Part shown: positions 42,601 to 45,600 of the stretch, piece by piece
Layout of the letters: every line of letters starts with the position of its first letter
Position numbering within the stretch: position 1 is the stretch's first letter
IMG/VR virus record: IMGVR_UViG_2718218360_000008
Strand: one strand, 5' to 3'
Source of the DNA: a virus
Lineage: Duplodnaviria > Heunggongvirae > Uroviricota > Caudoviricetes
DNA length: 64,000 bases
Made by a program: the position numbers

Positions 42601-45600
42601 CATCGAATGTTTCCTGGTATGTTGCGTCGCCCATCACCGCGCCACAATCAGGGCAGTTGCCGCCACTCCTCTGACCGCAGGCGGTGCAGATCTTTTCCGG
42701 TTCCTGTTGCACTACTGGTTCAGGTTGTTTCGTTTCTGGCTCGTTTTGTTGCGTATTTGGGCTGTTCTGTTCCGCTTTCTGGTCGTTCTGTTCCGTTTCT
42801 GGCTGATTCTGGTACACAGAATCGCGGGTCTGGATCCCCTTAATCCATTTCGGATCATTCGGGTCGCTAATCCCTTCAACAAATTCTCCGCGAGAGGCAG
42901 CCAGTAATTTGTCTGCATCGACAGGATTTTGGGGCGGAATGTTTTTCCGGGCTTCATGGAGTTCTGCCCGCAGTTTCTGATATTTCGCATCAACAGAATT
43001 TATCTGTGGCTGAGCATCCATCGACTGCGTGTCCTGATTATGTTCAGTTGTATCCGGTTCCACTGCTTCAGTCGTTGCCTGTTCATCTGCCATTGCGCCA
43101 GATGGCTGCGGTTTTTCTTCATCATCCTGTTTTCCTTCTTTTGTTACACGCTGCGGCATTGGAGCAGAGGAGCGACCGCAGGCAATATCCACGATTTCTG
43201 GATCAGGGTTGGCATGGTCGGTTTCGGTCAGTACTTTGTTCAGATATTCGGTAACACGGTGGGGAGTAGCCTCGATACCAATTGGTGCTTCTTTCACGGA
43301 CGCAACCACTATCGCGCGGGAATAATCCAGGTGACCAGGCATGGCGATGAATTTGTCACGAAAAACAGAAAAGGGCGGCTTATTCTCTGAAACGATTTCT
43401 TCAATGCGTTTGGCGTGTGCCGGATGTGGATTGTAAATATCGATGTCCATTGAACGGGCCAGAACGCCAGCGGCAACGTCACGTTCTACTGACGCATCAT
43501 CGTGGACAAAACCTTCACCGCGATCGGTAAGAATTCCTCCGCCAGCATTAGCGCCGGATGGCGTGCGGCTGATGCGTAAAACACGATTTCCTTTCATCCA
43601 CTCTTTTGTCAGCAGACCTCGATCGGTATAGTCAGCGTCCAGGTATGCTTCGAAAAAAGCAGTCATTAACCCCAGACTGGAATTAACGGGATTAGGGAAA
43701 ACTTTGTCTGTGTCGCGTACCAGTTTGTGAAGGTCGCGAATCTCCAGCGGGTCGAGCAGCTTTGTGTTGTGGGAAATAGCCAGGGCAGTAACAGCAGGCA
43801 GTTCTTCAGCTCGTGCGATATGTAATGCCTGAAGTTCTTCCCGTGAAACGTGCGTTACCGGTTTTTCGCTGCCATGTTGCGCAAGCCAGCGAATGGGCAG
43901 TTCCTGACCGGAAATCGGCAGGAGCATATTATCCTCAATCTCAGCCATGTCTTCGCCATTGACGTTGGTATTGTCAGAGCTGGCTGGTTTGTCCTGAACT
44001 GAGGGGGAAGGCGCTATAAATATCATTGTGATGCCATCTTCCCCGCCTTTTTCATAGCGGTTGCAGAATTCAGTATCGAACACACCTTCAGGCGGCAGGT
44101 CATTAACAATGGGCAAATTCACGCGAACAGGTTTTTTGAAATCCTCTTCGTCAAATCCAGCATCGTCCATTGCGACAACACCCCGTGATATTGCAACCGA
44201 TAATTTTTTTGCTGTGCGCCAGTAAAAACCGCCTTTAATCCCAAGGCGTTTTCTGACTTTGTCATTTTTGGCTTCGTAATACAGTGCAATTTCTTCTTTA
44301 TCAGTGCTCATTGATAAACCTCATAACTATTTTAAGGTTGTACGAATCCCTGCCATTGCTGGCATGCTTAATCAACGGGTATGGCGTTAATACGGCTGGC
44401 GGGTTATCCAGCCGGTATTTCGTTATTCAGGTACAGCGATACTTTGTTTAACGGGAGACATTCACCGGAAATTTTTTGCTCGTCTCTTGCCTGATGGCAG
44501 GATTCTTTACTGGCATAAATTCCGGTAATCACATTCTGTGGCTCACCTGTTATAAGAAAAACCGTCATCATCAGTGCAAACGCTGAACTCACTGCTGCCC
44601 TCCGAAAATGCCAAGTTCAAGAAGGGCAATTCTGGAGAGTATGGAATTATCATTGAGAAGATAAGGCTCATATTTTCTCATCCTGATGGCGTCTTCAGTA
44701 AACTCCCGGTTACTGAGCAGAATACCAATATTAAAACACCCTTCAGACGTATTAACGTTTGGTAGTGACGTTTCCATTATCGCGTCCTCAACAATGAATT
44801 TTGTGATGTGGTGCCTGGTGCCTCCAGGTGACGTTAACCAGTTAACAATTAACGCCGGAATACAGAATCACCCATAACGCTGTTTTTAGCTTTAACTGTT
44901 CCGCGTGCGCTCAGCCGCATTCACCACATCACAAAATTCACTTTAAAAAGGGCGGCAGAGCAGTCACGGAGTAAAACTGATACCGCCAAACGTCACCAGA
45001 AAATTGATAACAGAAGGCGTTGCAGCGGGGTTGTCACTTAAGCGTATGGTCAACCTGACAACCCGGTGTCCTCAACGGGGAAGAAATAACCCCGCCATAC
45101 TTACCGCCGCACCATTTCGCGGGTTGCCACAACCGGAAGCGCACGGTCGACGAAAATTTAACGACAGGCTATCTATGAACCAGCTACCTCGCCGTGCGCT
45201 TTCGCGTTATGGTCTGACTTTTCAGGGAAATATCCTTTCAGTAAACTGTCAGTGCCGGATGCTCACCCGCGTCCGGCGCACGCACTCCACCTCACCCGTG
45301 GAGAACTACTTAATTACCAACCTTAGCTTCGTTGGTTAGCTATTAACGCGGGTATGTAATCATTCTGGCAATGCTTAATGCCGCTGCTTTTTCCAGATTG
45401 GTGATATCCTGCTCCAGAGCGGACAGTTTTTCAGCCTGCTTAGCCCTGGCTTCATTGACCCATTTCAGATCCTGCGCTGCATTAATTTTCTGGCGCATCC
45501 ACTCATAAAGTTCATCATCGGTATAGTCTGGTGCGATGATGACGGGTTCTCGTTTCTGCATACTGATTCCTCGCGGTGCTGTTTCGCTTATCAGCCGTTA

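What the first reader, a model, noticed from the sequence alone, without database searches (positions are those of the whole stretch)
44795..45002. DicF sRNA followed by a 19-bp perfect long-range inverted repeat
TGAATTTTGTGATGTGGTG (44795-44813) and CACCACATCACAAAATTCA (44922-44940) are exact reverse complements about 108 nt apart, lying between the DicF terminator and dicB on the transcribed strand. In a read-through operon transcript they would form a long duplex, a plausible RNase III processing site.
Basis: partly seen in the sequence, partly recalled or inferred. Interest (0 to 1): 0.5.

Follow-up and report, generated by a model that had tools for sequence, protein, structure and literature searches.

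The report
Processing stem enclosing hidden prophage RNA
The two matching halves pair in the RNA to form a long stem that RNase III is already reported to cut just after the DicF small RNA, and the 108 bases they enclose are a conserved folded RNA related to the prophage family STnc100, sitting directly in front of the cell-division inhibitor gene dicB.

Summary
There is a perfect 19-bp inverted repeat (44795-44813 / 44922-44940) on the dicB-sense (minus) strand between DicF and dicB. It extends to 21 bp and is the only repeat of this kind in the 64-kb window.

The RNase III reading is supported, but it is not new. [quoted passage not shown] That 3' end maps to position 10 of the proximal arm. 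An rnc-dependent RNA-seq signal has also been reported in the dicF-dicB spacer.

- It is a sub-threshold but reciprocal relative of Rfam STnc100.
- Its helices covary strongly: 25 of 37 pairs carry compensatory changes.
- G·U pairs outnumber A·C mismatches 41 to 7, so selection acts on the RNA of this strand.

The same three-part module (terminated sRNA, domain, SD plus division inhibitor) occurs in the Rac prophage as KilS, domain, kilR. It also occurs across Enterobacterales prophages.

Stand-alone STnc100 copies close with 8-9 bp, while operon-embedded copies close with 19-22 bp. The predicted cut would leave 9 bp.

The function of the core domain is unknown.

The parts
44950..45002 (-). 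DicF sRNA (53-nt form), including its intrinsic terminator hairpin. The U-tract follows at 44945-44949.
   Evidence: Rfam RF00039 at 45001..44950, 76.7 bits against a gathering score of 48. Identical to K-12 dicF.
44922..44940 (-). 5' (proximal) arm of closing helix P1: UGAAUUUUGUGAUGUGGUG. The inferred RNase III cut lies between 44931 and 44930, which would be the 3' end of the 72-nt DicF.
   Evidence: The 72-nt species comes from the literature and was mapped through the K-12 coordinates. The cut position is inferred from the reported sizes.
44814..44921 (-). STnc100-like structured core. It comprises the linker AAU (44919-44921), hairpin P2 GCGGCUGAGCGCACGC (44903-44918), a variable middle, hairpin P4 GGCGUUAAUUGUUAACUGGUUAACGUC (44830-44856), and hairpin P5 CCUGGAGGCACCAGG (44814-44828), which abuts the 3' arm.
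   Evidence: Rfam STnc100 39.8 bits, E 3.7e-7, full model length. RNAalifold and pair counts show compensatory changes in P4 and P5. The reciprocal covariance model finds canonical STnc100 copies.
44795..44813 (-). 3' (distal) arm of P1: CACCACAUCACAAAAUUCA. The partner cut, inferred from the 2-nt 3' overhang rule, lies between 44803 and 44802.
   Evidence: The cut geometry is inferred from RNase III rules (PMC6212723).
44785..44789 (-). dicB Shine-Dalgarno sequence GAGGA, 5 nt after the 19-nt arm and 7 nt before the AUG.
   Evidence: Read directly from the sequence. The same SD and spacing occur in all dicB-type homologues.
44589..44777 (-). dicB, a cell-division inhibitor of 62 aa.
   Evidence: ORF list. 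Pfam PF05358 DicB 115.7 bits. RefSeq annotation of the identical O157:H7 locus.
45127..45212 (-). Upstream long imperfect hairpin of about 22 bp. It is the likely substrate for the other documented RNase III cut, the 5' end of the 190-nt DicF, expected near 45139.
   Evidence: Fold of 45240..45100 and inverted repeat I7. The 190-nt species is RNase III-dependent (PMC10448788). The position is inferred from its size.

Best explanation
The inverted repeat is the closing helix (P1) of a conserved structured RNA domain of about 146 nt. The domain is a divergent, operon-embedded relative of the prophage RNA family STnc100. It is transcribed only when RNA polymerase reads through the DicF terminator towards dicB.

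Shown:
- The helix forms in RNA of the dicB-sense strand, and selection keeps it at 19-22 bp.
- The enclosed 108 nt fold into conserved, covarying hairpins.
- The same module (terminated Hfq sRNA, domain, SD plus small toxic gene) recurs as DicF-domain-dicB in Qin-type prophages, as KilS-domain-kilR in Rac, and in front of other small genes.

Supported by published K-12 experiments: RNase III cuts read-through transcripts within the proximal arm, which gives the 72-nt DicF.

Inferred:
- The cut falls after arm position 10 (44931|44930), with a staggered partner cut at 44803|44802.
- This would separate DicF from the dicB message.
- It would leave dicB with a leader of about 25 nt, unstructured and 5'-monophosphorylated, that carries its SD.
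- It would release a core of about 128 nt closed by a 9-bp stem, the length seen in stand-alone STnc100 RNAs.

What the core does is unknown. My best guess is that it is a processed non-coding RNA product, or a folding insulator between the sRNA and the toxin message.
For: Repeat and fold.

K-12 Qin: the distal arm differs at two positions, and both become G·U wobbles.

Strand specificity: in 49 unique long-stem homologues, the first 19 positions give 880 Watson-Crick pairs, 41 G·U and 10 mismatches, of which 7 are A·C.

Covariation:
- At least six unrelated arm sequences keep 19-22 bp.
- RNAalifold recovers P1 and three hairpins, with 20 of 29 pairs compensatory.
- Pair counts give 88.5% of cells paired against 33-42% in slid controls, 25 of 37 pairs compensatory (15 of 21 in P1), and 0 of 500 shuffles as high.

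STnc100 relationship:
- Rfam STnc100 scores 39.8 bits, E 3.7e-7, here, and 34-44 bits in seven other members.
- The reciprocal model finds canonical STnc100 copies at 35-62 bits, including window 56791-56924.
- Stand-alone STnc100 closes with a median of 8 bp and a maximum of 9 bp.

RNase III:
- A 72-nt DicF is produced by RNase III (PMC5069750; PMC9438474).
- MG1655 coordinates put that end at arm position 10.
- There is an rnc-dependent coverage signal at 1649470.
- The two base pairs between the inferred cuts, G9-C11' and U10-A10', satisfy the in vivo rule.

Read-through and the Rac module:
- No promoter-like site lies between DicF and dicB.
- No internal promoter was found experimentally (PMC10448788).
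- The Rac module is documented.
Against: - The 72-nt end is known to me only through secondary citations and a size. I could not read Faubladier 1990, so the exact nucleotide is inferred.
- The experiments were done in K-12 Qin, not in this O157:H7 prophage.
- The Gordon 2017 position lies 8 nt inside the core rather than in the arm. It rests on 26 unstranded reads, and its resolution is coarse.
- Nothing I found shows cleavage of the distal arm or a stable excised core.
- Zero wild-type reads at 1649470 fit degradation of the core as well as they fit low expression.
- A long P1 could serve folding or translation control without RNase III being the selected function.
- The reciprocal model hits are not fully independent, because many of the loci were fetched through the shared 21-nt motif.
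Confidence: 0.75

Rival explanations
1. P1 acts mainly as a translational or stability control for dicB. A very stable helix ending 5 nt before the SD would hinder ribosome loading, or protect the 5' end, with RNase III being incidental. This overlaps with the best explanation rather than excluding it.
For: In every homologue the distal arm is followed within 26-60 nt by the SD and start codon of a small, often toxic gene such as dicB, kilR or a membrane peptide. The MFE fold pairs the SD GAGG with the terminator tail, although the centroid structure does not.
Against: The SD and start codon lie outside the helix and are not sequestered in the centroid structure. This does not explain the rnc-dependent 72-nt DicF, nor why the enclosed 108 nt are conserved.
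Confidence: 0.3
2. The helix is purely architectural. It would be the ordinary closing stem of an STnc100-type RNA, and its extra length would have no processing role.
For: All STnc100-superfamily members have a closing helix at this position.
Against: Sixty stand-alone copies never exceed 9 bp. Operon-embedded copies keep 19-22 bp through complete sequence turnover of the arms, which is about the length RNase III needs. An RNase III-dependent end maps inside the helix in K-12.
Confidence: 0.12
3. It is a DNA-level palindrome: a protein-binding site, a cruciform or recombination site, or the terminal inverted repeats of a miniature mobile element.
For: In this window the repeat is perfect, and it bounds a discrete 146-bp segment that also occurs in other contexts, namely Rac and a plasmid tRNA array.
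Against: G·U pairs (41) greatly outnumber A·C mismatches (7) on the dicB-sense strand, which DNA symmetry would not produce. The arms change sequence completely while pairing is kept. The flanks (caacaa / ctttaa) show no target-site duplication. The interior has covarying RNA hairpins.
Confidence: 0.03
4. The segment between the arms encodes a small protein, the 23-aa ORF at 44920..44849 (MRLSARGTVKAKNSVMGDSVFRR).
For: The ORF exists, and its AUG is invariant.
Against: Across 44 representatives only the first 10 or so codons are conserved, and these coincide with the invariant RNA block. Downstream, length varies from 7 to more than 47 aa, with frame-breaking indels and unrelated sequence.
Confidence: 0.03

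Closest known systems
RNase III processing of the dicBF transcript in E. coli K-12 Qin, giving the 72-nt DicF (Faubladier, Cam and Bouche 1990, as cited in PMC5069750 and PMC9438474)
   Same: It is the same operon and the same position. The proximal arm is identical and the distal arm differs at 2 of 19 positions, both G·U. The reported end falls in the middle of the arm.
   Different: This copy is in an O157:H7 prophage and its duplex is perfect. The accessible literature does not describe the enclosed 108 nt as a structured RNA domain.
STnc100 (Rfam RF02076) and the related PasD sRNAs of lambdoid prophages
   Same: Shared features are a closing helix, the GGUGAAU linker, a P2 hairpin, and the invariant UCACCNGGAGGCACCNGGCACC block, whose hairpin stacks on P1. 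Similarity is significant in both directions. A canonical copy lies 12 kb away in this window.
   Different: It scores below Rfam's gathering threshold (39.8 against 47). It has no terminator of its own and no obvious promoter. It is embedded in an mRNA leader, and its closing helix is 19-22 bp rather than 8-9 bp. Canonical copies sit in the late region near tRNA and stx genes.
KilS-kilR leader of the Rac prophage (KilS: PMC8175672)
   Same: The architecture is identical. An Hfq sRNA ends in a DicF-like terminator, followed by AAAG, the same domain, and then the SD and start codon of an FtsZ-directed division inhibitor.
   Different: P1 has one bulged A (22 bp, -30 kcal/mol). The downstream gene is kilR. 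I found no report of RNase III processing there.
RNase III processing stems of rRNA operons, and the intercistronic RNase III sites of phages T7 and lambda (from general knowledge)
   Same: A long helix formed by sequences flanking a structured RNA, or lying between cistrons, is cut with a 2-nt stagger. This separates the products of a polycistronic transcript.
   Different: The scale and the products differ. Here the excised product, if it is stable, would be about 128 nt and of unknown function.

Membership tests
DicF (Rfam RF00039) | Reaches the family's gathering score | tested here: met
   76.7 bits against 48 at 45001..44950.
STnc100 (Rfam RF02076) | Reaches the family's gathering score | tested here: not met
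   39.8 bits against 47. Seven other members of the subtype score 34-44 bits.
STnc100 (Rfam RF02076) | Statistically significant match to the covariance model over its structured core, and reciprocally | tested here: met
   E 3.7e-7 over model positions 1-206. A model built from the embedded subtype alone hits canonical copies at 35-62 bits, including window 56791-56924. Caveat: many of those loci were fetched through a shared motif.
STnc100 (Rfam RF02076) | Shared helices supported by covariation: the closing helix, and the hairpin CCNGG-AGGCA-CCNGG abutting its 3' strand | tested here: met
   P1 has 15 of 21 pairs with compensatory changes, and P5 has 4 of 5 (22 sequences switch G-C to U-A). 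Overall 88.5% of cells are paired against 33-42% when slid.
STnc100 (Rfam RF02076) | Stand-alone sRNA gene ending in its own intrinsic terminator | tested here: not met
   The distal arm is followed by the dicB SD and AUG, not by a terminator hairpin. The terminator part of the Rfam model aligns poorly.
RNase III double-cleavage substrate | Intramolecular helix of about two turns (roughly 20-22 bp) | tested here: met
   21 contiguous pairs, -31.6 kcal/mol, pairing probability about 1.0. The substrate length comes from PMC6212723.
RNase III double-cleavage substrate | The two positions between the staggered cuts are paired and include at least one G-C | tested here: met
   For the cut inferred from the 72-nt size, the pairs are G9-C11' and U10-A10'. 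This depends on the reported size being exact.
RNase III double-cleavage substrate | rnc-dependent ends in vivo or cleavage in vitro | not testable with these tools
   Literature only, for K-12: the 72-nt DicF and an rnc-dependent coverage difference at 1649470. I found no data for this O157 copy or for the distal arm.
Intrinsic (Rho-independent) terminator | Compact G+C-rich hairpin followed by a U-tract | tested here: not met
   The arms are 108 nt apart and the distal arm is followed by UUGUUGAGG. The terminator scan calls nothing here.
Miniature inverted-repeat mobile element | Terminal inverted repeats flanked by a target-site duplication | tested here: not met
   The flanks caacaa and ctttaa are unrelated. 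The arms evolve by RNA-compatible substitutions.

The most novel reading that the evidence does not exclude
The dicBF operon, and the kilS-kilR unit of Rac, make a third and so far unannotated RNA product. RNase III would cut both arms of the long P1 and release an STnc100-like RNA of about 128 nt with a canonical 9-bp closing stem. On this reading, the STnc100/PasD fold is a modular RNA domain that prophages deploy either as a stand-alone terminated sRNA or as an RNase III-excised intron-like cassette placed between an Hfq sRNA and a host-killing gene. E. coli K-12 would then carry two such RNAs that have never been described.
Probability: 0.3. Interest if true: 0.6.

Novelty: new variant of a known kind. 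Interest (0 to 1): 0.45.

Why it matters
DicF/dicB is a textbook prophage cell-division module, and DicF also affects EHEC virulence.

Recognising that the dicF-dicB spacer is a conserved, structured STnc100-type domain closed by an RNase III-length helix does four things:
- It gives a structural basis for the long-known 72-nt DicF.
- It links DicF/dicB and KilS/kilR as one conserved three-part design.
- It predicts exact cleavage coordinates that can be tested.
- It shows that the STnc100 family, whose function is unknown, is larger than Rfam's threshold admits and exists in two forms, stand-alone and operon-embedded.

If the core proves to be a stable product, K-12 itself holds two unannotated non-coding RNAs.

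Tried and rejected
- Small ORF in the 'loop': rejected, because only the first 10 or so codons are conserved.
- DNA palindrome or mobile element: rejected on the G·U against A·C asymmetry, arm turnover and the absence of a target-site duplication.
- Terminator: rejected.
- Primary sources: Faubladier and Bouche 1994 (PMC205167) is not held, and I did not try to fetch Faubladier 1990 (J Mol Biol, subscription). The supplementary tables of the nucleotide-resolution RNase III map (PMC6212723) are not held either. The exact cut therefore could not be verified.
- A literature search for a described kilR leader structure or RNase III processing there found nothing.
- My first attempt to measure canonical P1 lengths was contaminated by the GTGAAT inside the dicB-type arm, and I redid it.
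- The second long-range pairing in the MFE, DicF 5' end with the first dicB codons, is only marginally better than shuffles: z about -2, with 2-4% of shuffles as good for the common DicF variant and not significant for a minor one.
- A few genome hits in unrelated taxa (Nocardia, Thiocystis, Veillonella and others) are chance or contamination, and I did not use them as evidence.

Full report
OBSERVATION

The repeat is exactly as described. Arms 44795-44813 and 44922-44940 are 19 nt long, 100% complementary and 108 nt apart.

Rfam places DicF at 45001..44950 on the minus strand (76.7 bits). dicB is the minus-strand ORF 44777..44589 (Pfam DicB 115.7 bits).

The window is an E. coli O157:H7 prophage; the 541-bp query 44560-45100 is 100% identical to strain PV15-279. 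It carries the usual dicBF layout:
- a P22-Cro-type gene and an HTH_3 repressor upstream;
- YdfA- and YdfC-like ORFs, identified only by position and by my reading of the translations, since Pfam found no family for either;
- then DicF, dicB, DUF1482 and an exonuclease.

The 19-mer occurs nowhere else in the window even with 3 mismatches, and 0 of 100 shuffles gave two matches. It is the only inverted repeat of at least 16 nt, with arms within 400 nt, in all 64 kb.

On the minus-strand RNA the helix extends to 21 bp. It is worth -31.6 kcal/mol and has pairing probability of about 1.0.

THE HELIX IS SELECTED AS RNA ON THE dicB-SENSE STRAND

K-12 Qin has the same proximal arm. Its distal arm reads CACUGC instead of CACCAC, and both changes turn Watson-Crick pairs into G·U wobbles.

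I collected homologues by pattern scans of viral contigs and of one genome per species. This gave 105 unique elements of this subtype, from Escherichia, Shigella, Citrobacter, Klebsiella, Raoultella, Enterobacter, Lelliottia, Buttiauxella, Pantoea, Arsenophonus and Phlomobacter.

- At least six unrelated arm sequences all keep a 19-22 bp duplex. Examples are CAGACCUUGCAAUGCAGUG/CACUGCAUUGCAAGGUCUG and CAGGUUUUAAGGUGUGGUG/CACCACACCUUAAAGCCUG.
- In the 49 unique long-stem elements, the first 19 positions hold 880 Watson-Crick pairs, 41 G·U and 10 mismatches, of which 7 are A·C.
- A G·U on this strand would be a C·A mismatch on the other. The asymmetry therefore identifies the transcribed strand and rules out a DNA-level palindrome.

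THE 'LOOP' IS A STRUCTURED RNA DOMAIN

Aligning Qin-type, Rac-type and plasmid copies showed that the interior blocks are more conserved than DicF itself.

A permissive Rfam scan matched 44952..44745 to STnc100 (RF02076) over the whole model at 39.8 bits, E 3.7e-7, which is below the gathering score of 47. The 19-bp repeat aligned to the family's outer closing helix. Seven other members in different contexts score 34-44 bits, and no other family competes.

On a MAFFT alignment of 44 non-redundant representatives:
- RNAalifold independently recovered P1 and three internal hairpins, with 20 of 29 pairs showing compensatory changes.
- With the full 21-bp P1 written in, 88.5% of cells are paired against 33-42% for partners slid by 1-3 columns.
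- 25 of 37 pairs carry compensatory changes, including 15 of 21 in P1.
- None of 500 shuffles reaches the observed values.

A covariance model built only from this subtype finds canonical STnc100 copies at 35-62 bits, including the one in this window at 56791-56924. It also finds both copies in MG1655: Qin at 149 bits and Rac at 132 bits. One caveat is that many of the loci searched had been fetched through a motif the two subtypes share.

The 23-aa ORF inside the element is not conserved beyond its first 10 or so codons.

A CONSERVED THREE-PART MODULE

In the Rac prophage the same domain lies between a DicF-like terminator hairpin (Rfam DicF 39 bits) and kilR.

In MG1655 that hairpin is the 3' end of the annotated sRNA KilS, at 1418405-1418502. 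KilS is a Northern-verified, Hfq-associated RNA from the kilR 5' UTR (PMC8175672). It ends at the U-tract immediately before the element.

In other prophages the domain precedes other small genes, many of them short membrane peptides. The SD and start codon always lie 26-60 nt beyond the start of the distal arm.

No promoter-like site lies between DicF and dicB on the transcribed strand. Ragunathan et al. found no internal promoter either (PMC10448788). The domain and dicB are therefore made only by read-through of the DicF terminator.

RNase III

Balasubramanian et al. 2016 and Ponath et al. 2022, both citing Faubladier et al. [quoted passage not shown] The terminated form is 53 nt.

In MG1655, dicF is at 1649382-1649434. 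By alignment the arms are at 1649444-1649462 and 1649573-1649591. A 72-nt DicF ends at 1649453, which is position 10 of the proximal arm and corresponds to 44931 in this window.

Gordon et al. 2017 list 1649470 ('dicF-dicB') with 0 and 0 reads in wild type against 26 in delta-rnc, flagged as a known site. The method is coverage-based and unstranded, so it supports rnc-dependence of the spacer but not a precise position.

Applying the 2-nt 3'-overhang rule gives a partner cut between 44803 and 44802. The two pairs between the cuts, G9-C11' and U10-A10', meet the in vivo rule of being paired with at least one G-C (PMC6212723).

These cuts are inferences. They would leave:
- DicF-72;
- a 128-nt core (44930..44803) closed by 9 bp;
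- a dicB message with a 25-nt leader carrying its SD.

WHY THE LENGTH MATTERS

In 60 unique stand-alone STnc100 copies, the closing helix has a median of 8 bp and never exceeds 9 bp, with arm duplexes of about -12 kcal/mol. The operon-embedded subtype has 19-22 bp, at -26 to -41 kcal/mol. The Rac type has a single bulged A.

The extra turn of helix is thus specific to copies that must be cut out of a longer transcript, and the inferred cut would restore the canonical stem length. This is my main argument that RNase III processing, not just folding, is the selected function of the long repeat.

WHAT REMAINS UNKNOWN

The function of the STnc100 fold is not established:
- Canonical copies are expressed ncRNAs in EHEC. 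EDL933 has 11 annotated copies, one confirmed by Northern blot (PMC5331693).
- The related PasD is an Hfq-bound sRNA (bioRxiv 10.64898/2026.05.13.724894).
- STnc100 has been detected in outer-membrane vesicles (PMC12370729).
- None of these papers connects the family to dicF/dicB or kilR.

I found no evidence that the embedded core accumulates. The zero wild-type reads in Gordon et al. are compatible with its decay.

VERDICT

The RNase III interpretation is supported, but it is already in the literature for K-12. What is new is that the repeat is the extended closing helix of an unannotated STnc100-type domain, shared by the DicF/dicB and KilS/kilR units.

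Noticed in passing
L263 2406-2503 (MG1655 1418405-1418502, minus); L002 2451-2506: The annotated Rac sRNA KilS ends in a DicF-like terminator hairpin (Rfam DicF 39.1 bits, below the gathering score). It occupies the same position relative to kilR that DicF does relative to dicB. The paper that named KilS does not mention DicF.
   Followed up: partly
window 45127-45212 (minus): A long imperfect hairpin of about 22 bp lies upstream of DicF (fold z = -2.5). The 5' end expected for the RNase III-dependent 190-nt DicF, near 45139, falls in its 3' strand. DicF therefore appears to be bracketed by two RNase III-length helices.
   Followed up: partly
window 44988-45003 with 44758-44773 (minus strand): The 5' seed region of DicF (UGGUGACGUUU) is complementary to the first codons of dicB, and the pairing appears in the MFE fold. 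Across variants the duplex is only marginally better than shuffles (z about -2, with 2-4% of shuffles as good; not significant for a minor DicF variant).
   Followed up: partly
window 56634-57034: A canonical STnc100 (56779-56971, plus strand, 140 bits) sits just after a tRNA-like gene and a terminator. It abuts the anti-GcvB sRNA AgvB on the opposite strand (56973-57034). The window also holds sok, C4 and isrK near 50 kb.
   Followed up: no
L086, L132, L150, L173, L259 (about 20-60 nt upstream of the element); L263 about 2560-2610: In prophages that lack DicF, the element is preceded by a recurrent motif, GAUACCACCGAGCCUGAAGUGGUGAAAAGACAGGC. A similar sequence lies upstream of KilS in Rac. 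It may be a nut-like or other RNA signal.
   Followed up: no
L130, L133, L136, L139, L140, L142, L145, L147, L152, L155, L158, L160, L176, L181, L182 and others: Candidatus Arsenophonus triatominarum and Candidatus Phlomobacter genomes carry many copies of the subtype. The closing helices are shorter (8-12 bp ungapped), and where the downstream ORF could be read (about ten of these copies) it is about 85 aa and begins MRLDNPRIVTAKHPNMGNL or MKLDNPLIVT.
   Followed up: no
L005 2501-2621 (plasmid pEC7-3): A copy of the subtype lies inside a tRNA gene array on a 92-kb plasmid, with no dicF or dicB nearby. It is followed by a 43-aa hydrophobic ORF. It has the best STnc100 score of the subtype (43.9 bits).
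   Followed up: no
L014 2308-3367; L092 4382-5477 and 8363-8532; L026 375-1005; L109 7194-7595: Some viral contigs carry tandem arrays of two to five STnc100-type copies a few hundred bases apart; several of these copies are followed by a terminator-like hairpin.
   Followed up: no
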